Part shown: one piece after another, positions 2,400 through 55,885 of the stretch | Numbering within the stretch: position 1 is the stretch's first letter | Layout: each line of letters opens with the position of its first letter | Virus record (IMG/VR): IMGVR_UViG_3300046018_000239 | Location: 1-63,997 of that record | Source: a virus | Lineage: Duplodnaviria; Caudoviricetes | DNA: 63,997 bases | Strand: one strand, 5' to 3' | Notes under the pieces: generated by a model | The model's database searches: none | What the model was told of the DNA's origin: nothing | Seen by the model: the letters and a program-made list of their open reading frames with translations, nothing else | Position numbers and translations under genes: made by a program

Positions 2400-3187
2400 A
2401 GCAGGGCAGCGTCTGGATGCCGCTCTACATCGGCGACTACCTCGCAGACACCATGCACCTCGATGGCGCTGCGCACGGAGCCTATCTGCTAATGCTTATG
2501 CATTGCTGGCGCATGGGCCCGCTACCCGATGATGACCGCCAGTTGGCCATCATCGCCCGAACAGCCCCAGACACCTGGCGGGATGAGGTTGGGCCGGTTG
2601 TCCGGCGGTTCTTCACGGCCACCGACGCTGGCTTGATCCAAAAGCGCCTTGAAGAAGAACGGGTTGCGGCAACCGAGAACGCTGACCGCAAGACCACGGC
2701 GGGGCGGAAGGGCGCCGAAGCGCGATGGCAGAGGCATAGCGACCGCATAGCGACCGCAGAGCGGGACCAATGCCCGTCACCTTCACCTTCACCTATAGAG
2801 GGTACTACCTCTCCATCTAGCGATGGAGAGGTAGAGGCAGCCGGCCCGCCGGCCGCCCCTCTCGCCCGCCAGAAGCCCGAGATCGGCGACGCGCTGCTGT
2901 GGGACCTCTGCGGCGCATGGAACGAGGTGGTCGCCAACGCGGGGCTGCCCCAGGTCAAGGATCTGACCCTCAAGCGGAAGACCGCGCTGCGCGCCCGGAT
3001 CAAGGAGCGGTGGCAGCAGGACCCGGTGCGGCAGTTCCGCGCCTATGCCCGCCGCATCGCCACCTCGCCCTTCCTGACCGGCGGGAATGACCGCGGCTGG
3101 CGCGCTGACTTCGATTGGGCGCTGAAGCCCGACAACGTGCTGAAGGTCGCCGAGGGCAAGTTCCATCCCGAGCAGGAGGTGGCGTAG
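2396..3187 (+). CDS. DUF1376/YdaU-family replication initiator-like protein
   Basis: WMPLYIGDYLADTMHLDGAAHGAYLLML N-terminus and RADFDWALKPDNVLKVAEGKF C-terminus. Confidence 0.85.
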   Translation: MKQGSVWMPLYIGDYLADTMHLDGAAHGAYLLMLMHCWRMGPLPDDDRQLAIIARTAPDTWRDEVGPVVRRFFTATDAGLIQKRLEEERVAATENADRKTTAGRKGAEARWQRHSDRIATAERDQCPSPSPSPIEGTTSPSSDGEVEAAGPPAAPLARQKPEIGDALLWDLCGAWNEVVANAGLPQVKDLTLKRKTALRARIKERWQQDPVRQFRAYARRIATSPFLTGGNDRGWRADFDWALKPDNVLKVAEGKFHPEQEVA

Positions 3188-6953: not shown

Positions 6954-7271
6954 TCAGCCCTCCATGCGGCTGGTGTGCAGCAGCTTGCGGACGGTGGCGG
7001 CGTGGTCGTCAACCGCGTCGATCTTGGAGTAGGCTCGCGCCGGGAGGCTGGCAGCGTAGGCGGCAACTGCCGCTGTGTGGATCGCGTACTGGTCGGCGGT
7101 CAGGCCGATCATGTCCAGCTTGCCGTTGGCGCCCTTGATGCCGGTGTTGACCACCCACTTGAGCGCGCTGCCGGCCGGCGGCGGCACCAGAGATGCCTGC
7201 TTGCCGTTGACGTAGATGGCGCGGCCATTGGTGGTCATAGTGTAGGGGCCGACTTGGCGAATGGTCTGCAT
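6954..7271 (-). CDS. Hypothetical protein
   Basis: 3' part of ORF 6954..7349, starting at ATG 7271 downstream of a TTGACA hexamer. Confidence 0.65.
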   Translation of the reverse strand: MQTIRQVGPYTMTTNGRAIYVNGKQASLVPPPAGSALKWVVNTGIKGANGKLDMIGLTADQYAIHTAAVAAYAASLPARAYSKIDAVDDHAATVRKLLHTSRMEG

Positions 7272-7315
7272 GGTCTTTGTCCTGCCCCTGATGTCCAGCG
7301 AGGCGCCCGGTGTGG

Positions 7316-7379
7316 TTGCTTTATGACTTACTCTCTGCCAGTGTGTCAATCAGCAATCGCGAAGCAGAGTGTGTCAGTG
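7316..7379. promoter_or_regulatory. Leftward promoter and possible operator/res-like sites
   Basis: TTGACA on - at 7349-7344; AGTGTGTCA repeated at 7340 and 7368; TGAC...GTCA dyad 7324-7348; locally AT-richer. Confidence 0.45.
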
Positions 7380-7958
7380 GACGTAGCCTACATCAACCGC
7401 TCCCGAGGCGGCCCGGCCGAGGAAGACCAGCGCGCGGCGTGCGTGGCGGCCGGCGTCGATCCTGCCGACCCGGATGCCTGGTACGTCGAGCCGCCAGCCA
7501 AGCGGAACCGGCCGGCGACGTTCGTGGAGCGCGGGTTTGCTATTCAGGCGCTGCACCCCGGCGACAGGCTGGTGGTGCATTCGGCGCCGAGGCTCGGGGC
7601 CACAGAGGCGGAAATCCGCGCCGCTGCGGCTGCCGTCGCGGCGCAGGGCGCCAGCATCTACGACTGCGAGGCGGCGGCCGAGGTGCGGTTCCACCCTGAT
7701 GCCGGGAGGCTGCTGGCCTGGGCTGCCGCTGGCGCCAAGCTGGCCGCGGCAGAGAGGGCAGGGACGGCGCGCCGGGCCATCATCAACCGCGGCGCCCCGC
7801 CGAAGGCGCTGGTGGGCGACAAGCTGGTCGAGGCCCGCCGGCTCCTGAAGGAAACCGATCTAAGCGTGGCGGCCATCGCCAAGGCCGTAGGCGTGTCGGA
7901 TCGCACGCTCTACCGGGCCATGAAGCAAGGCATTCTGCGGAAGCGAGGTGACAGATGA
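7371..7958 (+). CDS. Serine resolvase/invertase-like protein with C-terminal HTH and a degenerate active site
   Basis: C-terminal 195 aa of ORF 6417..7958: AYINRS, EDQRAA, LHPGDRLVVHSAPRLG, AQGASI, and SVAAIAKAVGVSDRTLYR (Hin/Tn3-type HTH). Confidence 0.8.
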   Translation: MSVDVAYINRSRGGPAEEDQRAACVAAGVDPADPDAWYVEPPAKRNRPATFVERGFAIQALHPGDRLVVHSAPRLGATEAEIRAAAAAVAAQGASIYDCEAAAEVRFHPDAGRLLAWAAAGAKLAAAERAGTARRAIINRGAPPKALVGDKLVEARRLLKETDLSVAAIAKAVGVSDRTLYRAMKQGILRKRGDR

Positions 7959-8206
7959 GCGACGAGAACAAGACCACCGAGACCGCCTACCCCAGCGGCA
8001 ACCCCTGGCCGCTGCTGGACCGGCTGCGGTCCTGGCTGCCGGGCGCGTCAGTCGCGCCGCACCCCAGCAACATGCGTGCCGATGCAATGGACGCGCTGGC
8101 CGAAATCCAGCGGCTGCGGGCCGTGATCCGCGTCAGCGCACTCCGTTGGGCGCCGCACCTGACCCATGCCGAGATTGACGAGGTGATCAATGACAAGCAG
8201 CCCTGA
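7955..8206 (+). CDS. Hypothetical protein (array gene 1)
   Basis: ATGA overlap, GAGGTGA RBS. Confidence 0.75.
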   Translation: MSDENKTTETAYPSGNPWPLLDRLRSWLPGASVAPHPSNMRADAMDALAEIQRLRAVIRVSALRWAPHLTHAEIDEVINDKQP

Positions 8207-8414
8207 GACCACCCTGGGGCTGCCGGATGTGCTTCGCATCCTGGCGAACCAGATTGGCGGCGACGAGCAAGACCGGCTGCTTGAAGCTGCCGCCGAGATC
8301 GAGAAACTTCGCGCCGCTATCCATGGGATGCTCACCTGGGTCGAGCAGCGCCCAAGGCCCCACCCCTACGACACTTGGAAGGCGGCCCGCGTGGCCGTGG
8401 GTCTGCCAGAATGA
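8190..8414 (+). CDS. Hypothetical protein (array gene 2)
   Basis: GAGGTGA RBS; EAAAEIEKLRA phage-type coiled segment. Confidence 0.75.
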   Translation: MTSSPETTLGLPDVLRILANQIGGDEQDRLLEAAAEIEKLRAAIHGMLTWVEQRPRPHPYDTWKAARVAVGLPE

Positions 8415-8734
8415 GCGGTTCTGAAACCACCGGGGGCCGAGTGCGCCGCGTGGACGGCCGGGTTTACATCACGCTTGGCGGGGTAGAGCACGGCATGACG
8501 GCGGCCGAGGCCATGGCGCTTATGCGTGCCATCGGCAAGAGCATCGTGGCCGCTCCGCGCCTCCGTACCGCCTTGGCGCGCGGGGATGCCATTGTCGAGA
8601 TGCGTACCGCCTTGGTTCACCGCAACGACCTGTACCACCATGGCGACGCGGTGCTGCGGTGGGTGAATGAAGGCGACCTGTGGATGCTGCCGGTGCTTGG
8701 CATCCCCGTGGAGGATTTGCCCTATGCCGAATGA
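8411..8734 (+). CDS. Hypothetical protein (array gene 3)
   Basis: ATGA overlap at 8411 within ORF 8375..8734. Confidence 0.7.
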   Translation: MSGSETTGGRVRRVDGRVYITLGGVEHGMTAAEAMALMRAIGKSIVAAPRLRTALARGDAIVEMRTALVHRNDLYHHGDAVLRWVNEGDLWMLPVLGIPVEDLPYAE

Positions 8735-9512
8735 CCAGGGCAGTCCACCAACCACCGGCTTGCGGCCAGTGAGCGTCGATCTAATCACTGGCGATTGCAT
8801 GTCTTGCCTGTGGGACCGCGGGCCGTTCGACATGATCCTCGCCGATCCGCCTTATGGCGATACTTCGCTGGCCTGGGATCAGCACGTTCGCGGCTGGGAA
8901 GCGGTCGCGCATGACCTGCTGAAGCCGAGCGGTTCCATGTGGGTATTCGGCAGCATGCGCTTCTTCATGGCAACGGCCGAGCGGTTTGCTGCAGCCGGCT
9001 GGCGGTATGCCCAGGACGTTGTGTGGGAAAAGCACAACGGATCGGGCTTTCAGGCCGACCGCTTCAAGCGGGTGCATGAACACGCAATCCAGTTCTACCG
9101 GGCCGATGCGCCATGGTCCGGCGTCTGGAACGAGGTCCAGGTGACGCGGGACGCGGTGCAGCGGTCGGTGAAGCGGAAGAAGGGGCGGCCTGCCCACATG
9201 GGCAACATCGACCAGGCGCCCTATGCGAGCGAGGATGGCGGCCCGCGCATCATGCGCAGCGTCATCCCCATGCGTTCCTGCCACGGCATCGCCATTCATC
9301 CGACTGAGAAGCCGGTAGGGCTGCTGCAGTTGCTGGTCCGGTCCTCCTGCCCGCCGGGCGGGACGGTAGGCGACCTGTTCGCCGGCTCCGGTGCTGGCGG
9401 CGAAGCATGCGCCTCTGCAGGCCGCTCCTACGTGGGCACCGAGATTGACCCGGTGATGGCCGACAAGGCCCGCGCCCGGCTGGCCGGCAACCTGTTTGGA
9501 GCAGCAGCATGA
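8724..9512 (+). CDS. Beta-class N6/N4 DNA methyltransferase (array gene 4)
   Basis: GDC, DPPY, WEK, HPTEKP and DLFAGSG in beta order; GGAGG upstream of ATG 8724; alternative GTG at 8769. Confidence 0.93.
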   Translation: MPNDQGSPPTTGLRPVSVDLITGDCMSCLWDRGPFDMILADPPYGDTSLAWDQHVRGWEAVAHDLLKPSGSMWVFGSMRFFMATAERFAAAGWRYAQDVVWEKHNGSGFQADRFKRVHEHAIQFYRADAPWSGVWNEVQVTRDAVQRSVKRKKGRPAHMGNIDQAPYASEDGGPRIMRSVIPMRSCHGIAIHPTEKPVGLLQLLVRSSCPPGGTVGDLFAGSGAGGEACASAGRSYVGTEIDPVMADKARARLAGNLFGAAA

Positions 9513-9838
9513 CAGACAAGGCAGACAGTCCGGCAACCACCCCGCAGCCCATCGGGCCGCACACGGTTACGGTGCTGGGCTCGATTTGGCGGCCTAGCGC
9601 TCCATGGGCGGGGCTGGATTTCTCGCGCGCCAAGCTGCGCGACACCTCGATCTGGGGCGATGACTACCACCTGAACGTTCCGTGGTGCCATCCGAGCGAT
9701 CAGGACGAGACGTGGGGCACGCCGGCCTATGAGCCGGATTGCTGGTATCGCGTTCGCCCGCGCCGGAAAAGCTGGCGCTTCGTTCAGGTTGATGGCGTGT
9801 GGATGGTCGCGGAAAGGGAGCCTGCCAATGCCAAGTGA
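9509..9838 (+). CDS. Hypothetical protein (array gene 5)
   Basis: ATGA overlap, GGAG RBS; Trp-rich. Confidence 0.75.
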   Translation: MTDKADSPATTPQPIGPHTVTVLGSIWRPSAPWAGLDFSRAKLRDTSIWGDDYHLNVPWCHPSDQDETWGTPAYEPDCWYRVRPRRKSWRFVQVDGVWMVAEREPANAK

Positions 9839-10118
9839 CGACCAGAAGACGACGCCTAGGCACGCCTTAAATGCAGTGCGTGTGGCCAGCGATCCGTCTC
9901 CAGTGGTCCTACTGACCGCCTCGGCCGACGACGCGCTGCTGATGATTGCAATCGAGGCTGAGGTAATCCAGCGCGACAACGGCGCTCGCATCCGGGGTTC
10001 TTTCGGCTGGGAGGAGGCGCGTCGATTTGCCGAGGGGATGCTGGTCGTTGTGGCCGATGCGGAGGAGCGCAGCCGCGAGCGGGACCGCCAGAGATTGGAG
10101 GACGACAATGCCGAATGA
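9828..10118 (+). CDS. Hypothetical protein (array gene 6)
   Basis: GGGAG RBS; 11-nt overlap with the upstream gene. Confidence 0.7.
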   Translation: MPSDDQKTTPRHALNAVRVASDPSPVVLLTASADDALLMIAIEAEVIQRDNGARIRGSFGWEEARRFAEGMLVVVADAEERSRERDRQRLEDDNAE

Positions 10119-10374
10119 CGCACCAGCCCAGCAATCGACCCCGGATCGTGGCCGGATGCACGACTTTGCGGAGTGGAAGCGGCGGCAGAATTTCAATGTG
10201 CCGTCGCCCGGTCCACGCCCCGCCGACACCGCCCACTTCGATGTTCGCCGCTCCTGGGCGATGGATAAGTGCCTCTGGCGGATGGCCGAGGCGCAGACCC
10301 CGCAAGCTTACGACGACGCGCAGCGCGACTGGCTGACGGTCACGATGAGGAAGGAGCCTGCCAATGTCGAGTGA
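10108..10374 (+). CDS. Hypothetical protein (array gene 7)
   Basis: GGAGG RBS; 11-nt overlap. Confidence 0.7.
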   Translation: MPNDAPAQQSTPDRGRMHDFAEWKRRQNFNVPSPGPRPADTAHFDVRRSWAMDKCLWRMAEAQTPQAYDDAQRDWLTVTMRKEPANVE

Positions 10375-10624
10375 TCCCCAGCAAACCACCGACGAAGGCC
10401 CGACCCCGGCGCCGCGCATCGGGCGTCTGAACGGGGCGCCGCCCTACCGGGCATGGGAATTGCGGGCCGACCGACGCGCTGGTGGGCCATGGGGCATCCA
10501 GTGCGCTGGCGGGTTTAACTGCGTGTCCGGGCTGGGTGGCTCCACGTTCCTGCCGTCGCAAGCTGCGGCAGAGGCGATGATCCGCTCGCACGGGCATGAG
10601 CCGATGGAGCCGACGCATGGCTAA
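10364..10624 (+). CDS. Hypothetical protein (array gene 8)
   Basis: AAGGAG RBS; 11-nt overlap. Confidence 0.7.
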   Translation: MSSDPQQTTDEGPTPAPRIGRLNGAPPYRAWELRADRRAGGPWGIQCAGGFNCVSGLGGSTFLPSQAAAEAMIRSHGHEPMEPTHG

Positions 10625-10651
10625 CCAGCCCCAGCCCACCCGGCCCTGATT

Positions 10652-10688
10652 GAAGAAGCCCCGCCGGAGTGACCGGCGGGGCTTTCTG
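10652..10688. terminator. Bidirectional intrinsic terminator
   Basis: 12-bp stem AAGCCCCGCCGG / CCGGCGGGGCTT with a 5-nt loop, between convergent operons. Confidence 0.85.
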
Positions 10689-10808
10689 CGTCTGGCCTGC
10701 TGCCCTTGCCACCGTGCCAGTCGGGATGAGCCAGCGCGGCGGTAGGGGGTGCAGGTCGCCACCAGCGTCTCAGATCGGCGGCGCGCGGGCTTGGGGGTGC
10801 AGGCGCAT

Positions 10809-11522
10809 CTACGCCTCCCGCACCGCGAGGTGGTCGCGCAACGCCGCAGGGTTCCAGCGCATCACGGCCTCGGCCCGCACCGTGAGCCGGGCGGCACCAG
10901 CCCGCCAGCGGTGGGCAGCGCCACCAGCCCGCGCCGTCGCGGCCGAGTGGCCCAGCACCCGGAGCATGGCCCGGTGCAGGTCGCCTACCAGCACCCGGCC
11001 GGCGCGGTGGACCTGCGCGGCCGAGAATGCCTCGGGGAAGGCCAGCGCCAGGATATGCGCGTCCTCGTCCTCCTCGAACCAGCCGGCCAGCCCGGCGCCG
11101 TCGTGCGTCGCGGCCTGCACGTCCTCCGGGATCGTGGCCAGCAGCAGCCCGGCGACGTGGAATCCCCCGTGGCCAGCGCACCCGTAGCGCGTCAGGCCCG
11201 GCGCGTAGGACCACGCCATCTGCGCCTTTCCCCATGGCGTCGAGCGACCTGGCTGCCGGTCCACCGGGTAGCGCGCCCGCGCCGTGGTCCCGTCAGCCAG
11301 GGTCCATTGCGCCGAACCAGTGGCCAGGGGCAGGAAGTCGGCGGCCCAGGAGCGCGCCGCGTCCTCCTCCGGGTGCATCTCCAGCAGCTGCGCCAGCGTG
11401 CGCTCCACCGGCGCCACGCCGCGCGCCTCCAGCACCAGCAGCGTATCGCCCTCGCCCGGCGCCAGGGTACGCGAGAGGGGCCAGCGCGTGGACGGCTGGC
11501 GGAGATCGACGAGCATGTTCAT
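10809..11522 (-). CDS. DUF7007-like protein
   Basis: TPWG.AQ, GHGGF and WFEED...FP motifs; ATGA overlap at 11522. Confidence 0.7.
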   Translation of the reverse strand: MNMLVDLRQPSTRWPLSRTLAPGEGDTLLVLEARGVAPVERTLAQLLEMHPEEDAARSWAADFLPLATGSAQWTLADGTTARARYPVDRQPGRSTPWGKAQMAWSYAPGLTRYGCAGHGGFHVAGLLLATIPEDVQAATHDGAGLAGWFEEDEDAHILALAFPEAFSAAQVHRAGRVLVGDLHRAMLRVLGHSAATARAGGAAHRWRAGAARLTVRAEAVMRWNPAALRDHLAVREA

Positions 11523-11851
11523 GGGGTGGTTCCCTTCGCTGCGGCGACTGCGGCCTTCGCTGCCTGCATCCGCTCGTCGCTGATGATGTACGCGGTCGTG
11601 CCGGCCGGGCCGGTCATGCTTGGGCTGCGCGTGAGCCACTCCAGCGCCTCCAGCAGCGCGGGCGCGGCCGCGATCAGCCGGGCGTTGGCGTCGTCCTCGG
11701 CCCGCTTCCAGCCGCGAACCATGGTGCAGATCGGGTAAAGCGTCGTGCCGTTCTCGAACCGCATGCGGCCTTCGCCGGTCATGAAGATCGAGCCTTCGCC
11801 ATTCCCCTCGCCCATGTGCCACGGGCCGGGCGTGTGCTGGTCCTGCGGCAT
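11519..11851 (-). CDS. Conserved phage hypothetical protein
   Basis: HTPGPW...ANARLIAAAPALLEAL pattern; TGATG overlap. Confidence 0.85.
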   Translation of the reverse strand: MPQDQHTPGPWHMGEGNGEGSIFMTGEGRMRFENGTTLYPICTMVRGWKRAEDDANARLIAAAPALLEALEWLTRSPSMTGPAGTTAYIISDERMQAAKAAVAAAKGTTP

Positions 11852-12264
11852 CACGCGTCCTCGCTTTCGTCTTCGGGCTGGGGCACCCACACCCAGGCGG
11901 CTACCCAGAAGCCGTCATCGGCATGGGAGACCAGCGCGTCTTCGTCGATCTGCGTCTCGGTCGGATCGTCGATCCGGTCGCGTGCCGCCTCGCGCTCTGC
12001 CTCGGTCGCCAGCAGCGTGGACTCGTGCATGAACGGGTACAGCCCGTCGATCAGGTCCTCCTCGTCGAGGTAGAACGGTTCTGCCGCTTCGGGCTGGAGG
12101 CAGAACTGCAAGCCCTGCGGCGCTGGCAGGATGGCCACGCTTTCGACCATGCAGATGGCGCCGGCCGATATCAGCACCTCGTTGCCCTTGGGGTCCGTGG
12201 TGCCGAAGTCGGCGGTCAGGCGAACCTTGTCGCCTGCCATCGGGATGCGGGTTCCGATCGGCAT
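11851..12264 (-). CDS. Hypothetical protein
   Basis: TGATG overlap; acidic C-terminal IDEDALVS..DDGFWVAAWVWV motif. Confidence 0.75.
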   Translation of the reverse strand: MPIGTRIPMAGDKVRLTADFGTTDPKGNEVLISAGAICMVESVAILPAPQGLQFCLQPEAAEPFYLDEEDLIDGLYPFMHESTLLATEAEREAARDRIDDPTETQIDEDALVSHADDGFWVAAWVWVPQPEDESEDA

Positions 12265-12770
12265 CACGCGCCCCCCTCGGAGTTGGCGACGGCTTCCGCC
12301 AGCACCTGGACGGCTTGGGCGAGGTTGCCGGTTTCCCACAGGGAGACCACGCACTTCGCCGCAGTCAGCAGGTCTTGAAGCGTCTCCATCGCGTCCTCCG
12401 CGTCGTCGATGGCGCGGCCCGTCTCGCGGTCCTGGCTGTCCTCGTTCAGCGCCGGGCAGTCCAGCAGGGCGCGGAATGCCTGCACCATGCCGGCCTGCGG
12501 CTGGTCGATATCGCCATCCTCGATGGCGGCCTCGATGATCCACTTGTCGTCAGGGATGGTTTCGCTGCGCGGGTCACGGTCGCCAGCCAGCAGCCGCGCC
12601 GCCTCCAAGATGTGGGTCAGGTTGTTGTCGGCGTAGGCGTCCTCATAGGTCGCCGCCACCTCGCCGGCCGCGTCCACGATCTCCAGCTTCAGCAGCACGC
12701 CGCTACCGCCATCGGCGCGTATCTGGCGCACCGTGTAGGCCGGCGGCGGTTCCAGGGGTGTCTCGGGCAT
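12264..12770 (-). CDS. Hypothetical acidic protein
   Basis: AAGGAGG upstream of ATG 12770. Confidence 0.75.
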   Translation of the reverse strand: MPETPLEPPPAYTVRQIRADGGSGVLLKLEIVDAAGEVAATYEDAYADNNLTHILEAARLLAGDRDPRSETIPDDKWIIEAAIEDGDIDQPQAGMVQAFRALLDCPALNEDSQDRETGRAIDDAEDAMETLQDLLTAAKCVVSLWETGNLAQAVQVLAEAVANSEGGA

Positions 12771-12851
12771 GGGGTAGTCCTCCTTCAGCGGGCGTGATGC
12801 CGGCCTTCGCCTTCCCCGGCACCGCACGGGCGCCGGGTGGGGTGAGGGTCG

Positions 12852-12989
12852 TCAGGCTTGGGGCTTGCGAGCGATGCAGAACGAGAAGCGGAGCCGGCCA
12901 AGGGCCAGGAACCGGATGCCGCCGACGCGGCGGTAGCTGAACAGCCGAGGGCGCGGGGCGGGCTGGAAGGAGGTGCCGTCGAAGGGCAT
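12852..12989 (-). CDS. 45-aa basic protein not in the ORF track (MPFDGTSFQPAPRPRLFSYRRVGGIRFLALGRLRFSFCIARKPQA)
   Basis: Translated by hand; GGAGG RBS and TGATG overlap with the upstream gene. Confidence 0.7.
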   Translation of the reverse strand: MPFDGTSFQPAPRPRLFSYRRVGGIRFLALGRLRFSFCIARKPQA

Positions 12990-13306
12990 CACGCGGCCTC
13001 CAGCGTGGCGAAGAATGCGTCGCGGCTGGCGATGCCGGCGGCGCGCAACTCGCGTGCTACCTGCGCCAAGTTCCGCCCGGCAAAGCGGTCAGCCGCAGCC
13101 TTGGCACTCTCGCCGAGATAGCGGGGCAGGTTGGCGGCCAGCTTCGGGGTGCGCTCCGCACGCCGCACCAAGGCAGCAGCAACCGCGTCCCCATCGTACA
13201 TCTCGAAGCACGTATCGAAGTGGCGCGTCGCTTCCCCGCGCCGGCATATCGTCGCTGCGGCGTGGTTGACGCGCGCGGCGAAGTCCTCGGGATCGTACAC
13301 GCCCAT
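12989..13306 (-). CDS. Hypothetical protein
   Basis: TGATG overlap at 13306; AGGAG RBS. Confidence 0.7.
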   Translation of the reverse strand: MGVYDPEDFAARVNHAAATICRRGEATRHFDTCFEMYDGDAVAAALVRRAERTPKLAANLPRYLGESAKAAADRFAGRNLAQVARELRAAGIASRDAFFATLEAA

Positions 13307-15140: not shown

Positions 15141-15518
15141 ATGTCTGGTGCAGCGACGACTTGGTGCCCTTCCTGCAACCGAGGGCCTGACTATGAGTGC
15201 AATCGGGACCCGTGCGGGAAGTGGGGGCGTGTGGTGTCGAACTATCCGCCGCCGGTGGGCTGCATCTGCCCGCCTGGCGCAAACAAGGACTGCGAGGCGC
15301 CGCTGTGCCCGCGGAAGCCGCTGCGCATGACGAGCGCGGTGGCGACGGCGTTGACGGGTGACGACGCGCTGAAGGCTGCGAGGTGGCTGGTGCCGCCGCA
15401 GGCCCGCAAGGCGTGCGCGCATGGCTTCGACGAACTCTGCCCGGAGGATGAGGGCTATTGCGGGCAGGGTGGTTCCTGCGTGGTGCTGGGCCGGCGCGCT
15501 GCGGGGAGCAAGGACTGA
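15141..15518 (+). CDS. Cys-rich hypothetical protein
   Basis: GAGG RBS; 12 Cys in three groups of four; TGATG overlap with the next gene. Confidence 0.6.
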   Translation: MSGAATTWCPSCNRGPDYECNRDPCGKWGRVVSNYPPPVGCICPPGANKDCEAPLCPRKPLRMTSAVATALTGDDALKAARWLVPPQARKACAHGFDELCPEDEGYCGQGGSCVVLGRRAAGSKD

Positions 15519-41442: not shown

Positions 41443-44400
41443 CGAACCTCGCTTCTGACGATTGGGCTGGCTTTGAGCCAGTGGCCGCTGACGAGTGGGC
41501 TGGCTTTGAGGCGGCCCCGGCCGTTCCGCCACGCCAGGCCGAACCGCGCAGCCCCACCGAGCCCCCGATCGTGGCCGGGCAACCCTTCTGGCGCCCCGGT
41601 GCTGCCGAAGCTCCCCGCGCGCTGGAGGCGGTATCTGCCGCGCCCCCGCCAGCGCAGGCGGCATCCCCACCTCCGCCGCCCGCAGGCCCGCCGGCCCCGC
41701 GCATGGGCAACCCCGGCGCCCGCATGGCGCGGCCCATCGAAGGGTTCGACGAACCTGCGCCGCTGCCCGGCCCCCAGCCGCTCATGCAGGAAGTGCCGAT
41801 GGAGTTGTTCCCCGGCAGCCCGCGGAATCTGCGGCCGGCGGGGCAGCGGGTGGATACCCTCAACTTCACGGACCCGCAGGGCCGCGTCACCAGCACGGTG
41901 CGCCAGCCGGTGCCCGACGACATGGCGACGCCGCGCCCGCCGCCGGAGTTCCCGGACCCGCAGGAATACACGCGCCCGCAGCAGCGCGACTACGCCAGCC
42001 TGACGCCAGGCCAGCGCGCCGGGGACCAGCTGCGCAGCGGCGTGGAGACGCTGAAGCAGGGCATCGACAGCATGGGGCTGGGCGGCATCTACGGCCAGTT
42101 GCAGCAGATCGACCGGGCCGACCAAGCCGCGGCGAGCGGTACGCCTCTGGCAAGCCCGCGCCGCATGGAGGCGGCGGCCGGCGGCGGCATGGACGCGCTC
42201 TCCCCGCAGCAGCGCGCCATCATGCGCGAGCGGCTGGAGGCCGAGGCCGGCCAGAAGCTGACCAGCATCATCACCTCCTCCAACCGGCAGGCGCTGCTTG
42301 CCAGCAACCCGGCCGCGCGTGCCATCACCGAAGCCGGCAACGAAGGCCGCTGGCGCGACGCCTGGCGCATCTTCCTGACGGACCCGGGCGGAATCATCCA
42401 GCAGTTCGCCGTCGAGAGCGCGCCCCTATCGGCGCCGATGATCGTCGGCGGCTTGGCGGCTGGCCTTGTCGGCGGCCCCGTCCTCGGCGCGCTGACCGCG
42501 TTCGGCGGCAGCTACGGGACCGAGTTCGGCCCCGGCCAGGTGCAGGCCATCCTGGAGGCGCTACGGGCCCGTGGGGTGGACGTGACCGACGAGCGGGCCG
42601 TGGCCGGATTCCTCCGCACGGACCCGCAGATTGCCATCGACGCAGCCAGCGAGGCCGGGCGTGCCGCGCTTGGCCCGGCCGCCTTCGACGCCATGGGCAT
42701 GGGCGCGGCCGGCGGCCTCCGGCGCGGCGCGGGCTTCCTGCGGAATGCCGGGGTCGTGGGGCGGAATACCGGCCTTGAACTGGCGGGCGAGCCGGCTGGT
42801 GCCGCGCTGGGCCAGATCCTCGGCGGCGGCAGCATCGACAAGCCGGGCGATCTGATCGGCGAGTTCCTCGGCGCCGGGCCGCAGGTCGTCGGCAGCACGG
42901 CCTACGGCACGCTGATGGAGATGCGGCAGCCTTCACCCCTGGCCGGCGTGACGGCACAGCAGCCGCAGGACCAGACCACCACGGCGCCCAACCCGGGCAT
43001 GCCGGCAGACCCCCAGGCGCCTCCTCCGGCAGCCGGGGTGCCTCCGTCCCAGGTGCAGCCTACGCAGGACGTCCCGCCTGCCGCGCCTGGGGCGGGGGCT
43101 GCTGTCCCCCCCGCTGGGCCAGCGCCTCCTCCGGTCCACGTCAACCCCGGCGCCCCGGACCTGGAGGCGGACCTTCAGGACCCGCGCCCGGCCGAGCAGA
43201 TCGAGGCGGAGAAGGAGGCAGCCGCACAGGCTGCCCTCCAGCAGGCCCAGGCCGCGCTTCCCCGCGGCTGGACGGTGGAGCGCCAGGACGGCGACTTCCT
43301 GCTGTTGGACCCGCACGGCAACGAGGCTGGGGCGCTGAACCGCGCTCCCGATGCCGAGGCGGTAGAAGGCTGGCGGCGGCTGGCAGAGCAGGCCAACGCG
43401 ACGGGGGTCTATAACGACGCCATCCGCGACGGCGACGGCACGAAGGCCGCGCCGGTGCAGGCCGTGCGCCCGGGTGACGTGGACCATGCTGCCGGCCAAG
43501 CCAACCCCGCGCCGACGCCAGCCCAGGCCGAGGCAGGGAACTACGCCAAGGGGCATGTCCGACTGCATGGCTTGGACATCGCCATCGAGACGCGGAAGGG
43601 CGAGACGCGCACCGGAGTTGGGGCTGATGGGCGCCCGTGGTCCGTCCAGATGCCGGCCCACTATGGCGAGGTGAAGGGCACGGTCGGCAGCGACGGCGAC
43701 GCGGTGGACGTGTACCTCGGCCACGACGCCGAGAACCCGAACGGCACGGTCTATGTCATCGACCAGGTGGATGCCGACACCGGCAAGTTCGACGAGCATA
43801 AGGCCATCATCGGCGCCGGCTCGCTGGCTGAGGCGCAGCGCCTGTACCACGCCGCGTTCAACGATGGCCGCGGCCCGGATCGCATGGGCGCGGTGCTGCC
43901 GCTGACCCTGCCGGAGTTCAAGGCCTGGCTGGCGAGCGGCAAGACGAAGCAGCCGCTGAACCCGGCGCAGATCTCCAAGGGCATCCGCGACCGGCGCGCT
44001 GCGGCCGCCCAGCAGCAGAAGGCCGAGGCTGACGCGAAGGCGGCCCAGGCGGCGGAGGAGAAGGCCCGGAAGGATGCCGAGGGGCAGAAGGTCAAGGCCG
44101 AGGCTGACAAGCGCGCCGACGCGGCCAAGCAGTACCAGCGCGTCCGCAGCCTGATCCACAAGCTGCGTGAAGCGGGCATGACGGACTATGCCAAGAGCCT
44201 GGCCGAGATGGTCCAGAACAACCGCAAGCAGGGCGTGCCGCCGGGCGCCGCCGGCGTGGACGAACTGGAGGCTTCGGTCACGCGGACCATTGCCCAGCAC
44301 ATCGAGAAGCAGGAGGCCGAGCGCGTCCGCAAGCTGGCCGAGCAGAAGCGCCGGCAGGACCTGGAGGCGGAACAGAAAAAGGCCAAGGAGGAGGCCGCGG

Positions 44401-47400
44401 CCCCCGAGGGAGAAAAAGGGGAGAAGAAAGGGGAGAAAACTGCCGCCCCCAAGCCGGAGCCTGTGGCGCCAGCGGTCGATCCAGAACCGTCGCCTGCGCC
44501 CGCCCCGGCCGGCCCTAAGCTGCTAGTGTCCGACGACCGCATGGCGGAACTGAAAGCCAAGCTGAAGGCCAAGATGCAGGGCCAGTTGAACGCTGGCCTG
44601 GACCCCGAGATGATCGCCCTCGGCGCGGAACTGGCGGTTGGCTACCTGGAGCGCGGCACCCGCCGGTTCGCCGCTTGGTCCGCACAAGTTGTTTCGGACC
44701 TCGGGGAAGAAGTGCGCCCTTTCCTCCGGGCATGGTACGAGAGCGCCCGCTACTACCCCGGGTTCGACAATGCCGGCATGACGCCGGCCGCGCAGATCGA
44801 CAGCGGGGAACCCGAAGGAGACGACAATGCTGACGGACAGGGAGGTTCTGACGCTTCAGGCGGAGGCACGGCGCCGGCGGCGGGACCCGCAGTTGATCCA
44901 GAACCTGGAAATGCACAGCCGGATCCTGAAGTCGTGGGAGACGGAGCGCCCGGCGATGTGGGCGCGGCTCCAGACGCAGAACCTGTCGGAGACGATGGCC
45001 TTCCTGGCGCAACAGCGGATGTGGGAGGAACGGGACCGGCTGGTGGAAGCGGGAATGCCGATAACGGACGCCCGCGAGGAGGCCGAGCGCAACCATCTTC
45101 TGCTGGGGCCGGAAGCGGAAACGGAGGAAACGGCGCCGCCGACGGAGGAACTGGAGGAAGCGGTGCAGGAAGTGCCGGAGGTGTAGCCACCCCGAGCCCG
45201 GCGGGCCCTTCCGCCGGCGACTTCCACATTGATGACCCCGCGGCCTACCTGGGCGGCGGGCCGGTCGCGCGGTTCAACCGCAACCGCGCCGCGATCGAGA
45301 CGCTGAACGCCGTCCGGGACAGCGACCGCCCTGCCACCCGCGAGGAGCAGGAGAAGTTGGCCGGCTATACCGGCTGGGGTTCCTTCGGCCAGGACCTGTT
45401 CAAAGGTTCATGGCAGAACCCCAATCCTCGGCCCGGTTGGGAGGAGCGCGACCGCTGGCTACGCGCGCACCTGGGCCGCCCGGCCTGGGAATCAGCCCAG
45501 GCCAGCATCCTCAACGCCCACTACACGGACCCGCCCGTGGTGCTGGCCATGTGGGACATGGTGCGCCGCGCCGGCTTCGAGGGTGGCAGGGTACTGGAGC
45601 CGTCCATGGGCACCGGCAACTTCTTCTCCCTCATGCCGCAGGACTTGAAGGCCCGCAGCGACCTGACGGGAATCGAGTTGGACACGACCACGGCGGAAAT
45701 CTCCAAGCTGCTGTTCCCGGACTCCAACGTGCGGCAGATGCCGTATCAGGACAGCCGCACCCCGGACGGCTTCTATGACGTGGTGATCGGCAATTGGCCC
45801 TTCGCCGGTCAGACCGTCGCCGACCGCCGCCACGGCAAGATGAAGCCGACGCTGCATGACTTCTTCTTCCTGAAGGCGCTGGACCAGGCGCGCGCCGGCG
45901 GCCTTGTCATCGGCATCACCAGCCACGGCACCATGGACAAGGAGGGCACGCGGGTACGCGCGCACCTGGCGCGCAACGCGGAACTTGTGGCGGCCATCCG
46001 CCTGCCGACCGGCGCGTTCGAAGGCTACGCCGGGACTGCGGTGGTCACGGACATCGTGGTGCTGAAGAAGCGGGCGACCCCACTGCTGGAAACTCCGGAC
46101 GAAGCCTGGGTAAAGGCGAGTATGGTGCCGACGCCGGCCGGCCCGGAGGTGCGCCTGAACGAATACTTCCGGCAGAATCCGGAGCGCGTGCTGGGCACCG
46201 TCAACTTCGGCAGCGGCACGACGCAAGGCTCGGCTGGGCTGATCGTGGATCGGCCCGACAACCTGATGGAGAAGCTGACCGCTGCGGTCGAGGCGATCCC
46301 CGAAGGCGCCTATGAGCGCGAGCGCGCCAACGACCACATCACCTACATCACCAACCACACCGCCGACCGCGAGGGCGCCCTGGTGTTCCAGGGCGATGAG
46401 GCGTTCGTCGTGCGCGGCGAGCAGCTTGCCCCGGCCCACCAGGTCGCCAAGTTCCTGGTGAAGTCGGCGAAGGAGAACGCATCGCGGTTGCAGCAGCTGC
46501 GCGACCTGGTGGCCATGCGCCGCGCCTACGCCGAACTCATCACGAAAGAGCGCGCCGGCCAAGATGCCGAAGCGGAGCGCACCACGCTGCGCCAGCAGTT
46601 CGAGGCATTCACCAAGGCGAATGGCCCGCTGAACAAGTCGTTCGGCCTGGCCTACTTGAGCAAGATCGACGACCCGTTCTACCCGGCGCTGGCGGCGCTG
46701 ATGACGAAGGACGGCAAGCCGGCGGCGATCCTGTCGCGCTCGACGATGCGCGCGAAGCCGAAGCTGGAGAACCCCAGCATCGCCGACGCCTTCGTGTTGG
46801 CCCGGCAGCAGAGCATCCGGCCGACGCTGGCCGAGATCGCGGCGCTGACCGGCAAGCCGGCAGACGAGGTGAAGGCCGGGCTAATCAAGTCCGGCGCGGT
46901 GTTCGAGACGGTGGACGGGGACGTGGAACCGTCCGACCTGTACCTGTCCGGAAATGTCCGGGTGAAGCTACGCCAGGCGCAGGCGGCGGTCGCCGAGGGC
47001 CAGAAGCACCTCCAGCGGAACGTGGACGCGCTGAAAGAGGTGCAGCCCAAGGACGTGCCCTACTACGACATCGAGGTGCAGCTTGGCGCGACCTGGGTGC
47101 CGGAGGACGTGTACGAGGATTACGTCGCGCACATGCTGAACCGGCCCAACACCGAGGGCATCAACATCCGGTTCACGCTGGGGCGGTGGAAGGCGCGGTT
47201 GACCGGGCTGAACAACCTCTCCGCGGCCCGCAGTGGCTTCGGCATGGATGACCGGCGCGTGCCGTTCTCCCGCCTCCTCCAGGCGGCAATGTCCAACCAG
47301 ACCTTCAAGGTCATGGCGAAGGACGACAAGGGGACCGAATACGTGGACCCCAAGCCGACCAAGCAGGCGGCCGACCGCATCGCCAATATCCGGGCATCCT

Positions 47401-55293: not shown

Positions 55294-55885
55294 CTGGCGC
55301 CTCCATTAGATGCGTCTCCAGCATCCCATGCAGGCAGTCCGGGGACCGCGGGCGGGCCTGGGCCGCCATCAAGCCGGCGTCCAGGCCGTCCCACCAGGGA
55401 CGCAGCCGCACAGCCATGGTCTCGGCGATCATGTGCGGTTGCCGGATCACGTCTTCAAAGTCCAACGTCAGCAGCGGCACCGGGATGGCATTCAAGGCGC
55501 GTGGTTCATCGGCTTTCAGCTTGGCAACCATCAACCGCCGCGTGTTCCGCGTGTCAGGCACGTTGTGCCCCATGGCGCGCAGCAGCTTGATCTGGCTCTT
55601 TGCCTGCTGGCGCGGGTCACGCCGGAGCCAGATGGAGAAGAACCCGCCAGGGATCGAGACCGGCGCGCTTGGGCGTTGCATGCTGACATGCGGGTCCAGA
55701 ACCTTCACCGCTTTGCCGCCCTGCTGCGTGAGCCAGGACCAGGACATGCTGGGGTAGGTTTCCTGGCACTCAAAATCGGGGTAGCTGCCGGCGACCTTGG
55801 CGCCCCCAGCGGCCAGCATCTGCATGATGAGGCTGGTGCCGCAACGGCCGAGGCCGCAGACCAGCATGATGGGGCGGTCAACCAT
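55283..55885 (-). CDS. Sulfotransferase-family (P-loop) protein
   Basis: 5'-PSB-like VCGLGRCGTSLIMQML, 3'-PB-like LRRDP.QQAKS, LDFEDVIRQP; AAGGAGG upstream of ATG 55885. Confidence 0.75.
   Translation of the reverse strand: MVDRPIMLVCGLGRCGTSLIMQMLAAGGAKVAGSYPDFECQETYPSMSWSWLTQQGGKAVKVLDPHVSMQRPSAPVSIPGGFFSIWLRRDPRQQAKSQIKLLRAMGHNVPDTRNTRRLMVAKLKADEPRALNAIPVPLLTLDFEDVIRQPHMIAETMAVRLRPWWDGLDAGLMAAQARPRSPDCLHGMLETHLMEAPDAR

What the first reader, a model, noticed from the sequence alone, without database searches (positions are those of the whole stretch)
7955..10649. Eight consecutive unrelated genes share a Thr-Thr N-terminal leader: candidate gene-cassette array behind a serine-recombinase homolog
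Seen: every gene from 7955 to 10624 opens with a short polar leader ending in TT or ST. The leaders are MSDENKTT, MTSSPETT, MSGSETT, MPNDQGSPPTT, MTDKADSPATT, MPSDDQKTT, MPNDAPAQQST and MSSDPQQTT. In DNA this is in-frame ACCACC at 7973, 8208, 8426, 8751, 9536 and 10385, ACGACG at 9849 and TCGACC at 10135. Similarity stops after the motif. The MTase still has a plausible start of its own (GTG 8769) just behind the leader, and gene 7 has a Met just behind it. The array ends in an RBS plus a body-less leader stub (10617-10649, MANQPQPTRP*) directly before the terminator. Inference: either the exchangeable unit is [gene body + RBS/start/leader of the next gene] with boundaries near ACCACC, which would be an integron-like cassette logic that keeps inserts in frame and translationally coupled, or the leader is a peptide-level signal, which the synonymous ACGACG would fit.
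Basis: partly seen in the sequence, partly recalled or inferred. Interest (0 to 1): 0.8.

Follow-up and report, generated by a model that had tools for sequence, protein, structure and literature searches.

The report
Repeated start-region linkers joining phage genes
In one operon of an uncultivated temperate phage, eight mostly unrelated small genes each begin with the same kind of short add-on leader ending in Thr-Thr, apparently a reusable linker that keeps neighbouring genes translated together and may let gene bodies be swapped between related phages.

Summary
All 8 array genes have a polar leader ending in [ST]T at residues 6-11, against 0 of 65 other crude gene calls in this 64-kb phage and 21 of 1550 genes in 86 comparison loci.

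The leader is an add-on. It is A/C-rich, and composition returns to normal right after ACCACC. Of 120 methyltransferase homologues, 119 lack it and begin at the window's internal GTG 8769.

Start-region junctions are repeated DNA joining unrelated bodies: GGAGCCTGCCAATG occurs twice in the window, and a 24-nt junction occurs twice in the only relative with DNA, L087. EPAN tails and TT leaders also sit on unrelated protein families in other metagenomic phages.

L087 carries g6 and g3 homologues in reversed order among different genes.

There is no integron machinery: no attC-like hairpins, and the upstream gene is a degenerate serine-recombinase homologue.

Best reading (about 0.45): portable translational-coupling linkers that also act as recombination joints, comparable to PeSLs of T4-type phages. 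A peptide-level signal and pure translational convergence remain open.

The parts
7377..7958 (+). First cistron of the operon: a degenerate serine-recombinase (invertase-like) homologue with a C-terminal HTH. Its stop overlaps the g1 start (ATGA).
   Evidence: Pfam and PHROG hits cover the HTH only. BLASTP against the KS14 DNA invertase gives E=9e-10, 32% over 137 aa. hhalign gives 89%, E=2.2e-6 over 173 columns. L087 has a homologue upstream of its own array (28% identity, E=3e-4).
7955..8206 (+). g1, 83 aa, no known family. Leader MSDENKTT (7955-7978).
8190..8414 (+). g2, 74 aa, no known family. Leader MTSSPETT (8190-8213). Overlaps g1 by 17 nt.
8411..8734 (+). g3, 107 aa, made of two modules. 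Leader MSGSETT (8411-8431), then an N-module (RVRRxDGRVYITLGGVEHGM), then a C-module (..LYxHGDAVLRWVNEGDL). The tail YAE* holds the g4 start.
   Evidence: The two modules have separate sets of homologues. By eye, 7 of 9 N-module homologues carry TT leaders; the strict rule counts 6, leaving out P0160.
8724..9512 (+). g4, an N6/N4 DNA methyltransferase with a 15-codon extension. The extension is leader MPNDQGSPPTT (8724-8756) plus GLRP, ahead of the family's usual start at GTG 8769.
   Evidence: PF01555 E=1.4e-32. Homologues start MSVxLLTGDC. 119 of 120 lack a polar TT leader. None of the 45 best loci has one in frame upstream.
9509..9838 (+). g5, 109 aa. Leader MTDKADSPATT (9509-9541). The tail EPANAK* holds the SD and start of g6.
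   Evidence: Of 15 family members, the window's own among them, 4 carry TT leaders. Homology starts at TT.
9828..10118 (+). g6, 96 aa. Leader MPSDDQKTT (9828-9854, ACGACG). The tail NAE* holds the g7 start.
   Evidence: 56% identical to L087 2016-2315 from residue 11 on. Homologue P0163 has no TT leader.
10108..10374 (+). g7, 88 aa. Leader MPNDAPAQQST (10108-10140, TCGACC). The tail EPANVE* holds the SD and start of g8.
   Evidence: Unrelated to g5.
10364..10624 (+). g8, 86 aa. Leader MSSDPQQTT (10364-10390). The tail EPTHG* holds the SD and start of the stub.
   Evidence: No hit in the phage collection.
10617..10649 (+). Leader stub without a body: SD, ATG and an A/C-rich 9-codon leader (MANQPQPTRP*).
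   Evidence: Its junction GGAGCCGACGCATG resembles the type-B junction GGAGCCTGCCAATG (read by eye).
9817..9853 (+). Type-B junction, copy 1 (end of g5 / start of g6).
   Evidence: 37-nt direct repeat with 10353-10389, 78% identical, first 14 nt exact.
10353..10389 (+). Type-B junction, copy 2 (end of g7 / start of g8).
8724..8735 (+). Type-A junction core ATGCCGAATGAC. It recurs exactly at 10108-10119 and with 10 of 12 matches at 9828-9839.
   Evidence: Family D7. The pattern occurs nowhere else in the genome.
10656..10684 (+). Terminator-like hairpin that closes the operon (12-bp perfect stem, 5-nt loop, then TTCTG).
   Evidence: I3. Folding 10600-10700 gives -49.7 kcal/mol, z=-3.9. The simple terminator scan did not list it because the T run is too short.

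Best explanation
Positions 7377-10649 form one operon of translationally coupled cistrons in a temperate 64-kb phage. Each cistron begins with a member of one family of short 'coupling linkers'. A linker consists of:
- a Shine-Dalgarno sequence encoded inside the last codons of the upstream gene;
- an ATG that overlaps the upstream stop by 4-17 nt;
- 5-9 A/C-rich, G/T-poor codons that end in (A)ACC-ACC, read as Thr-Thr.

The linker is translated as an N-terminal extension but is not part of the conserved protein body.

Proposed function, in two parts:
(i) The linker gives every downstream body the same unstructured re-initiation pad, so expression does not depend on the body's own 5' sequence.
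(ii) Because the same linkers recur between unrelated genes, in this phage and in its relatives, they serve as the short homologies at which phage or host recombination inserts, deletes and swaps gene bodies in frame.

This is modular shuffling of the PeSL kind, not integron-type site-specific recombination.

Shown: the anatomy, its non-random occurrence, the add-on nature of the leader, the repeated junction DNA, and shuffled gene order in one relative.
Inferred: both functions, and that crossovers fall inside the linkers.
For: Anatomy. Every start overlaps the preceding stop, and 8 of 9 starts have GGAG-type SDs 6-9 nt upstream.

Leader composition. Leaders are A .33, C .38, G .22, T .07, against A .18, T .15 in other N-termini. 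Composition is normal in the 10 codons after TT.

Nucleotide-level signal. ACCACC makes up 6/7 of the TT dicodons here, against 32% elsewhere (p=.005). The codon before TT ends in A in 5/8 genes, against 8% (p=1.5e-4).

The leader is an add-on.
- Methyltransferase: 119/120 homologues lack it and 0/45 loci have it in frame upstream.
- g6: homologue P0163 starts MS-DNALGRR without it, while L087 has MTEKTT-GG-DNALGRR.
- g3 C-module homologues lack it.

Portable junctions.
- GGAGCCTGCCAATG joins g5|g6 and g7|g8, although g5 and g7 are unrelated.
- The same E-P-A-N tail ends P0002 (g5 family) and P0146 (g3 N-module family).
- [YNDH]AE tails, which encode ATGCNGARTGA, end g3, g6, L087's g6 homologue and P0140.
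- L087 repeats a 24-nt junction exactly at 2002-2025 and 3057-3080, read in different frames by the two upstream ORFs.

Leaders of adjacent genes are more alike than those of non-adjacent genes (permutation p=.016).

Shuffling. L087 has the order recombinase homologue, orfA, g6-like, DUF551-like (a name recalled from its sequence; no family search was run on it), orfC, orfD, g3N-like. The window has g1, g2, g3, MTase, g5, g6, g7, g8.

Leader and body separate. TCTGAAACCACC heads g3 in the window and orfD in L087.

Plausibility. The phage encodes an exonuclease, an SbcC-like protein and RusA. PeSL-mediated shuffling is documented in T4-type phages (abstracts of PMC2839356 and PMC4122927). C/A-rich ACA motifs enhance translation (abstract of PMC3879156).
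Against: - Only one relative with DNA was found: 3 kb, about 3x coverage by its record name, and only 51-56% protein identity. Breakpoints therefore cannot be placed precisely.
- The only DNA-level boundary (after g6) lies at the stop/start overlap, at 10119, not at TT.
- The 12-nt leader identity could be convergence. By my own rough estimate, made with no tool, p is about 0.01-0.1 once ACCACC is taken as given.
- Identical short leaders on unrelated bodies (MTEKTT on P0145 and on L087's g6 homologue) have only 3 free positions, so they are weak evidence.
- Exact homologies of 6-24 nt are short for homologous recombination.
- ACCACC is not enriched or strand-biased genome-wide (44 on +, 48 on -).
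- Predicted folding around array starts is no weaker than around other starts of this genome (-14.4 against -16.9 kcal/mol, p=.23). The leader therefore gives no measurable extra openness.
- Thr-Thr persists with varied codons (ACC ACA and ACG ACC in L087, ACG ACG in g6), and it persists while the residues before it change freely. This fits selection on the peptide as well or better.
- A/C-richness alone does not explain why exactly TT ends every leader.
Confidence: 0.45

Rival explanations
1. Peptide-level signal. The short disordered leader ending in Thr-Thr is a tag read on the protein. It could be a degron that limits the lifetime of these early proteins, a processing or cleavage site, or a Thr modification site. 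Each gene in this phage lineage acquired it under selection.
For: TT is kept while the preceding 4-9 residues and the spacing to the body vary freely.
- g3 N-module family: 7 of 9 homologues, plus L087's copy.
- g5 family: 4 of 15 members, the window's own included.

Codons at TT vary (ACC, ACG, ACA). All second residues are S, T or P, and all leaders lack hydrophobic residues. In the g6 family the leader was attached at different points of the same body, which suggests repeated selection for it.

Known analogues, recalled and not checked: the T4 capsid-targeting leader, and the N-terminal ClpX signal of lambda O.
Against: - Synonymous choice is biased (ACCACC 6/7 against 32%; A-ending codon before TT in 5/8 against 8%). 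This points to selection on nucleotides.
- The body-less stub carries a leader with nothing to tag.
- The SD and spacer upstream of the ATG are repeated too, which a peptide signal does not explain.
- No known motif, protease or kinase was identified. Pfam, PHROGs and NCBIfam are blank for 7 of the 8 bodies.
Confidence: 0.22
2. Translation-initiation optimisation only. In a 68% G+C genome, tightly overlapping cistrons need an unstructured, A-rich start region. The leaders and junctions are convergent or locally copied solutions, with no role in gene exchange. Gene-order differences between relatives are ordinary phage mosaicism.
For: - Start regions genome-wide fold less stably than internal windows (-16.9 against -22.4 kcal/mol, p=2e-6).
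- They are enriched in T and P (12% each against 6%).
- G is lower after starts genome-wide (0.28 against 0.35).
- The minus-strand operon has its own recurrent junction, GCGTGATGCC.
- ACA and C/A-rich enhancers are known (PMC3879156 abstract).
- Distant homologues of g5 and of the MTase sit among quite different neighbours everywhere.
Against: - A 7-nt spacer (CCTGCCA) and a 24-nt junction repeated exactly are not expected from convergence.
- The EPAN tail recurs on three unrelated families in different phages.
- No other gene of this genome uses such a leader (0/65), although all of them face the same G+C content.
- Array starts do not fold more weakly than other starts, so structure avoidance does not require this particular device.
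Confidence: 0.22
3. Integron-like site-specific cassette system. The upstream serine-recombinase homologue recognises the ACCACC-containing leaders and inserts or excises [body + next leader] units.
For: - A homologue of the same recombinase-like gene heads the array both in the window and in L087.
- It is homologous to a phage DNA invertase over the catalytic domain and the HTH.
- The window's protein keeps a Ser at the position aligned with the invertase's RVS serine.
- orfD plus its following leader in L087 looks like a unit inserted at ACCACC.
Against: - There is no Pfam Resolvase hit and no PDB sequence hit.
- Residues aligned with the invertase's conserved R of RVS and the D and second R of DRLGR are replaced (N, P, A). 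L087's homologue has Ala in place of the Ser. That these residues are catalytic is recalled knowledge.
- No inverted-repeat or hairpin sites lie at the boundaries.
- The motif is only 6-7 nt long and varies.
- The only tyrosine integrase is an ordinary phage integrase 45 kb away.
Confidence: 0.04
4. Artefact of chance, composition or wrong start calls.
For: - Three array genes have alternative downstream starts: GTG 8441, GTG 8769 and GTG 9903.
- The public gene call of the MTase starts even later, at ATG 8799 (P0016).
- [ST]T near N-termini reaches 12.5% in G+C-rich phage loci, with runs of up to 4.
Against: - 8/8 against 0/65 and 21/1550.
- 7 of the 9 genome-wide SD+ATG+leader sites lie in 2.7 kb.
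- The alternative starts have no SD and would leave gaps.
- Independent gene calls on homologues also include TT leaders.
Confidence: 0.03

Closest known systems
PeSL (promoter-early stem-loop) mobile regulatory cassettes of T4-type phages (Arbiol et al. 2010, PMC2839356; Comeau et al. 2014, PMC4122927; abstracts read)
   Same: A short conserved expression signal is repeated between small, mostly ORFan, non-essential genes of a plastic region. Relatives differ by insertion, deletion and replacement of the genes between the repeats. The repeat supplies expression to whatever gene follows it.
   Different: PeSLs are intergenic, consist of a promoter plus a terminator hairpin, and act on transcription. 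Here the repeat has no promoter or hairpin. It lies inside coding sequence, acts (by inference) on translational coupling, and is translated in frame as an N-terminal leader. Recombination at the repeats, and mini-circles, are shown for PeSLs but not here.
Integron gene-cassette arrays
   Same: A row of unrelated, same-strand genes without promoters of their own, behind a recombinase-family gene. Order and content vary between relatives. The unit boundary is a short recurring sequence.
   Different: There is no IntI-type tyrosine recombinase next to the array and no attC hairpins. Genes overlap instead of being separated by attC sites. The boundary is in frame and translated. The neighbouring recombinase homologue is of the serine family and is degenerate.
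Ordinary translational coupling through overlapping stop and start codons (ATGA and longer overlaps); also synthetic bicistronic designs and N-terminal expression tags (recalled, no paper read)
   Same: The SD lies inside the upstream ORF. The start overlaps the stop by 4, 8, 11 or 17 nt. The start region is unstructured. A standard leader insulates expression from the gene body.
   Different: Ordinary coupled genes do not share a recognisable leader peptide or repeated junction DNA across unrelated gene pairs and across phages.
C/A-rich (ACA) translation-enhancer elements (Yang et al. 2014, PMC3879156; abstract read)
   Same: A/C-rich sequence close to the start codon that raises initiation and is tolerant of exact position.
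   Different: The described elements lie upstream of the SD, in 5' UTRs of enterobacterial genes. Here the tract is downstream of the ATG and coding, and ACA itself is present, by eye, in only 3 of 8 leaders. No expression data exist.
Relaxed homologous recombination by phage Rad52-like recombinases (De Paepe et al. 2014, PMC3945230; search listing and start of abstract only)
   Same: It offers a mechanism by which temperate phages exchange DNA at short or diverged homologies.
   Different: No Rad52-like recombinase was identified here. Only an exonuclease, an SbcC-like protein, RusA and an uncharacterised PHROG were found.
Shared N-terminal leaders on unrelated phage proteins, such as the T4 capsid-targeting sequence of internal proteins (recalled, not checked)
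   Same: A short N-terminal leader common to otherwise unrelated proteins of one phage.
   Different: The T4 leader is conserved in sequence and is cleaved by the prohead protease. Here only Thr-Thr and the polar character are conserved, the genes are in a non-structural operon, and no cleavage is known.

Membership tests
Integron cassette array | IntI-type tyrosine recombinase gene adjacent to the array | tested here: not met
   The adjacent gene is related to serine recombinases. The only tyrosine integrase (55878-57119, phrog_1, E=1.6e-49) lies about 45 kb away.
Integron cassette array | attC recombination site (imperfect inverted repeat or hairpin) at the end of each cassette | tested here: not met
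   The inverted-repeat scan of 7900-10720 found 9 pairs. None recurs at gene boundaries, and the only perfect hairpin is the terminator-like one at 10656-10684. The genes overlap, which leaves no room for an attC.
Integron cassette array | Cassette content and order differ between related elements | tested here: met
   L087 has g6-like before g3N-like, with four other genes not found in the window. This is one relative only.
Serine recombinase (resolvase/invertase), for gene 7377-7958 | Sequence homology to the catalytic domain plus the C-terminal HTH | tested here: met
   BLASTP against the KS14 DNA invertase gives E=9e-10 over residues 56-184. hhalign gives 89%, E=2.2e-6 over 173 columns, from residue 2 on. 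Library searches see the HTH only, and there is no PDB hit.
Serine recombinase (resolvase/invertase), for gene 7377-7958 | Conserved catalytic residues (Ser nucleophile in the RVS motif; D, R, R of the DRLGR motif). Their identity is recalled knowledge. | tested here: inconclusive
   In the hhalign alignment the window has NRS (Ser kept, Arg replaced by Asn) and APRLGA (Asp replaced by Pro, last Arg by Ala). L087's homologue has RLA (Ser replaced by Ala). The alignment is of low depth, and the structure model was too poor to use (pLDDT 45.8).
PeSL-type mobile regulatory cassettes | Conserved short motif repeated between small genes of a variable region | tested here: met
   Window: 37-nt and 12-nt junction repeats. 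L087: a 24-nt exact junction repeat. A TT leader on 8/8 genes.
PeSL-type mobile regulatory cassettes | The motif consists of a sigma-70 early promoter plus a terminator stem-loop | tested here: not met
   There are 0 promoter-like sites in 7100-10900 and no hairpins at the junctions. The motif is SD + ATG + coding leader.
PeSL-type mobile regulatory cassettes | Indels and replacements between relatives are bounded by the motif; mini-circles form | tested here: inconclusive
   Homology between relatives starts at or just after TT in g5, g3N and g6. The DNA-level boundary after g6 is at the stop/start overlap. Divergence is too high and there is only one DNA relative. Circles cannot be tested from contigs.
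Translationally coupled overlapping cistrons | Start codon overlaps or abuts the upstream stop, with an SD inside the upstream ORF | tested here: met
   Overlaps are 4, 17, 4, 11, 4, 11, 11, 11 and 8 nt. A GGAG-type SD lies 6-9 nt upstream in 8 of 9. Coupling itself has not been measured.
N6/N4 DNA methyltransferase (g4) | Match to PF01555 above Pfam's threshold | tested here: met
   E=1.4e-32, 113.9 bits against a cut-off of 26.7. 5981 homologues at E<=0.001.

The most novel reading that the evidence does not exclude
A lineage of temperate phages uses a natural 'plug-and-play' gene-cassette grammar with no dedicated integrase. A standard, in-frame linker (SD in the upstream tail, an ATG overlapping the stop, an A/C-rich leader closed by ACC-ACC / Thr-Thr) is both the translation re-initiation signal and the crossover point. 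Any gene body dropped between two linkers is therefore expressed at once as a leader-tagged protein, and whole [body + next leader] units move between phages. The conserved, degenerate serine-recombinase-like protein at the head of the array might bind or synapse the linkers.
Probability: 0.25. Interest if true: 0.8.

Novelty: new variant of a known kind. Interest (0 to 1): 0.62.

Why it matters
Phage accessory regions are the main reservoir of ORFan genes. How new genes enter them and become expressed immediately is a long-standing question. Short 'linker' homologies at gene boundaries were proposed decades ago, but clear cases are rare; PeSLs in T4-type phages are one.

A coding, in-frame translational-coupling linker would be a second and mechanistically different solution. 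It would explain how foreign bodies, here a methyltransferase with its own start codon still visible, are plugged into an operon.

It is also of practical interest. It would be a natural counterpart of engineered bicistronic or leader-tag designs for context-independent expression in high-G+C hosts. It also warns annotators: the public gene call for the methyltransferase misses the leader (P0016 starts at ATG 8799).

The question can be tested directly with reporter fusions and by recovering the relatives' contigs.

Tried and rejected
Relatives sought and not found.
- The search for related loci in IMG/VR with the upstream gene, g5, the primase/helicase, the g3 N-module alignment and the g6 alignment all came back empty. 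Only distant g5 homologues without TT arrays turned up (9 loci).
- The first metagenome scan (g5 alignment) found nothing. The second (g3 N-module) gave one locus, L087.
- tblastn of g5, g3 and g8 against 50,697 phage records gave no match.
- blastn of the region against the phage records hit only a methyltransferase piece.
- The junction pattern was searched in IMG/VR with 0 matches.
- The g3 N-module profile found nothing in 5 genomes or in 401 genomes drawn from the class of G001. This means not found in those searched.
- The 77 methyltransferase loci share no other array gene with the window.
g8 was searched only against the phage records. Their 'no homologue' status is untested.

Reads.
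- No RNA holder was listed.
- Two DNA runs hold the stretch: X1, which may be the source, and X2, with identical fragments.
- Only Logan contigs were laid, so rare rearrangements cannot be seen.
- X1 contigs give no cover over about 9537-10880. A hole proves nothing.
- One X1 contig joins 7832 to 10820 with only 20 letters on the shorter side, at 80% likeness. The tool itself flags such joints as unreliable, so I draw nothing from it.

Structure. The AlphaFold model of the upstream protein (2-row alignment) had pLDDT 45.8, so no fold search was run.

Ideas considered and dropped.
- SD-sequestering pairing of ACCACC with the SD. By eye it fits only some junctions (g1, g2, g4) and no fold was run, so it is not general.
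- A Chi-like role of GGTGG. There is no strand bias (44 against 48).
- Paralogy of the bodies.
- A G/U-rich sRNA targeting AACCACC. No candidate locus was seen, and the 4 minus-strand copies lie in genes.
- P0152, which is a spurious repeat-protein hit.

Literature. A search for a described N-terminal-leader or coupled-cassette system in phages found no paper with 4 of 5 terms. A search on conserved gene-boundary sequences in mosaic phages listed 3 papers, none describing such linkers. Supplements were not consulted. I cannot claim the phenomenon is not in print beyond these searches.

Full report
WHAT THE WINDOW IS. The window is a complete record of 63,997 bp, 66-73% G+C, with no tRNA genes. 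PHROG matches identify a temperate tailed phage:
- tyrosine integrase at 55878-57119 and a repressor-like gene at 57379-57849;
- terminase and portal;
- an exonuclease and an SbcC-like protein;
- RusA, a replication initiator and a primase/helicase.
No isolated phage resembles the region. Two wetland-metagenome runs hold it. One of them may be its source.

THE OBSERVATION. From 7377 to 10649 there are nine plus-strand cistrons and a 10-codon stub. Each start overlaps the preceding stop, by 4, 17, 4, 11, 4, 11, 11, 11 and 8 nt. GGAG-type SDs lie 6-9 nt upstream of 8 of the 9 starts. The unit ends at a perfect 12-bp hairpin at 10656-10684.

The eight genes after the first one begin MSDENKTT, MTSSPETT, MSGSETT, MPNDQGSPPTT, MTDKADSPATT, MPSDDQKTT, MPNDAPAQQST and MSSDPQQTT.

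I called genes with a crude codon-score and SD caller. The counts are:
- [ST]T in the first 12 residues: 8/8 in the array, against 4/65 elsewhere in the genome (TT 2/65; Fisher p=3.7e-8).
- The same measure in 1550 genes called the same way in 86 comparison loci: 12.5%. The longest run of consecutive positives is 4, and those runs are of the MTT/MST type seen in actinobacterial contexts.
- [ST]T at residues 6-10 behind a leader without hydrophobic residues: 8/8 against 0/65 and 21/1550.
- A six-frame scan that ignores gene calls: 9 SD+ATG+leader sites in the genome, 7 of them in the array. g3 fails the SD criterion. The other two sites are a 9-codon ORF and 15141.

The bodies are unrelated. 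The exception is a 14-residue motif shared by g1 and g2. Only g4 has a family, the N6/N4 DNA methyltransferases.

THE LEADER IS AN ADD-ON WITH A SHARP EDGE. From codon 2 to TT the leaders are A .33, C .38, G .22, T .07. Other N-termini of the genome are A .18, T .15. The ten codons after TT are ordinary, at A .15, C .35, G .35, T .15.

Synonymous choices are skewed:
- ACCACC is used in 6 of 7 TT pairs, against 32% of TT dicodons elsewhere (p=.005).
- The codon before TT ends in A in 5 of 8 genes, against 8% (p=1.5e-4).

Homologues show that the leader is not part of the protein cores.
- Methyltransferase: of the 120 closest homologues, 119 lack such a leader. Those I read begin MSVxLLTGDC, which corresponds to the window's GTG 8769. 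None of the 45 best loci has an in-frame leader upstream.
- g5 family: 4 of 15 members, the closest ones and the window's own among them, carry TT leaders (MSKTETT, MTEHQTT, MPNPETT). Similarity begins at TT.
- g3 is built of two modules with separate sets of homologues. C-module homologues have no such leader. By eye, seven of nine N-module homologues have one (MSKSETT, MPNNQTT, MTGESKTT, MTEKTT, MASDQPQTT, MSSDQTT, MPVKPMETT), with variable spacing to the body.
- g6 family: P0163 (74% identical) starts MS-DNALGRR. L087's copy (56% identical) starts MTEKTT-GG-DNALGRR. The window's starts MPSDDQKTT-P-RH. The leader has therefore been attached to the same body at different points, or lost from it.

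THE JUNCTIONS ARE REPEATED DNA. Within the array:
- GGAGCCTGCCAATG, which is SD, 7-nt spacer and ATG, occurs at both g5|g6 and g7|g8. It sits inside a 37-nt repeat of 78% identity, although g5 and g7 are unrelated.
- ATGCCGAATGAC occurs at g3|g4 and g6|g7, with a 10/12 copy at g5|g6. Neither pattern occurs elsewhere in the genome.
- Leaders of adjacent genes resemble each other more than those of non-adjacent genes. Over the 12 nt before TT, g2-g3 match at 8, g4-g5 at 9 and g7-g8 at 8 positions (permutation p=.016).
- The stub repeats the pattern of SD, ATG and A/C-rich leader without a body.

In other phages, the E-P-A-N tail that encodes the type-B junction ends P0002 (g5 family) and P0146 (g3 N-module family). 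[YNDH]AE tails, which encode ATGCNGARTGA, end P0140 and L087's g6 homologue.

THE ONE RELATIVE WITH DNA. L087 is a 3,080-bp metagenome contig. It carries, in order:
- a homologue of the upstream gene (28% identity, E=3e-4);
- orfA;
- a g6 homologue (MTEKTT);
- a protein that looks DUF551-like (a name recalled from its sequence; no family search was run on it);
- orfC;
- orfD (MKSETT);
- a g3 N-module homologue (MADDPQHKTT).

Order and content therefore differ from the window, where g3 precedes g6. orfD's leader contains TCTGAAACCACC, identical to the g3 leader of the window, but it is followed by a different body. The g3-like body comes next, behind a second TT leader. That is the arrangement expected if [orfD body + next leader] had been inserted at ACCACC.

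L087 also repeats a 24-nt junction exactly at 2002-2025 and 3057-3080, the second copy at the contig end. The two upstream ORFs read it in different frames, so this is conservation of DNA, not of a protein tail.

At 51-56% protein identity this cannot be resolved further.

WHAT IT IS NOT. It is not an integron. There are no attC-like hairpins and no adjacent IntI.

The upstream gene is a genuine serine-recombinase homologue. However, library searches detect only its HTH. It has lost residues aligned with the invertase's conserved motifs, and L087's copy has Ala where the invertase has its RVS serine. That these residues are catalytic is recalled knowledge. A structure model was too poor to help.

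It is also not explained by RNA folding alone. Starts throughout the genome are less structured than gene interiors (p=2e-6), but array starts are no more open than other starts (p=.23).

INTERPRETATION. The best-supported reading is a family of portable translational-coupling linkers. The linker supplies SD, start and an unstructured pad. It is translated as a neutral or useful N-terminal extension. Because it is repeated between unrelated genes, it offers homology for in-frame swapping, insertion and loss of bodies.

This parallels the PeSL cassettes of T4-type phages (abstracts), with translation signals in place of transcription signals. C/A-rich enhancers give a precedent for the RNA-level role (abstract).

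What remains unexplained is why the linker always closes with Thr-Thr. The codon bias argues for a nucleotide motif. The persistence of TT with varied codons, and with free variation around it, argues for the peptide. I therefore keep a peptide-level signal (0.22) and pure translational convergence (0.22) as serious rivals to the linker-recombination model (0.45).

LIMITS.
- The gene calls are my own.
- The strict leader definition is post hoc.
- The protein N-termini in the databases come from automatic gene callers. The window's own methyltransferase is called from ATG 8799 (P0016).
- Only one relative's DNA could be read.
- g1, g2 and g7 were not searched against the large protein collections, and g8 only against the phage records.

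Noticed in passing
window 15141-15518 (+): This is the only other SD+ATG start in the genome with a polar leader ending in TT on a real ORF (MSGAATTWCPSCNRG..., 125 aa). It lies just upstream of the terminase region. My gene caller had started this ORF at GTG 15231.
   Followed up: partly
window 11519-13306 (-): The minus-strand operon of small genes has its own recurrent junction, GCGTGATGCC (a TGA/ATG overlap), at three starts (11851, 12264, 12989). All three give MP... N-termini. Operon-specific junction styles may be general in this phage.
   Followed up: no
window 41703-53522 (+): A single ORF of 3,939 codons lies in the late region. It was not analysed.
   Followed up: no
window 8411-8734 (g3): g3 is a fusion of two modules that occur separately and in other combinations in metagenomic proteins. 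For example, the N-module occurs with a C-terminus that looks DUF551-like (recalled, not tested) in P0140, and the C-module occurs behind many different N-termini.
   Followed up: partly
window 9506-9536 and 9537-10880 (run X1): A 5,059-nt Logan contig of run X1 ends exactly at 9536, the ACCACC of the g5 leader. X1 contigs then give no cover until about 10880. One X1 contig joins 7832 to 10820, but with only 20 letters on one side. This could reflect strain variants that branch at a linker, or only filtering and low depth. It cannot be decided from contigs.
   Followed up: partly
L087 2002-2025 and 3057-3080: A 24-nt exact junction repeat occurs 1,055 nt apart, with the second copy at the contig's end. 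The g3-like ORF runs in frame into the second copy, so either a fusion protein or an assembly break at a repeat is possible.
   Followed up: partly
window 8799 (P0016): The public protein collection holds the window's methyltransferase as a 237-aa product that starts at ATG 8799. This misses both the leader start (8724) and the family's usual start (GTG 8769).
   Followed up: yes
window 7377-7958 and L087 1208-1846: A degenerate serine-recombinase-like protein with an HTH heads the array in both phages. Library searches miss its catalytic-domain homology, which shows only in a direct comparison with a phage invertase.
   Followed up: yes
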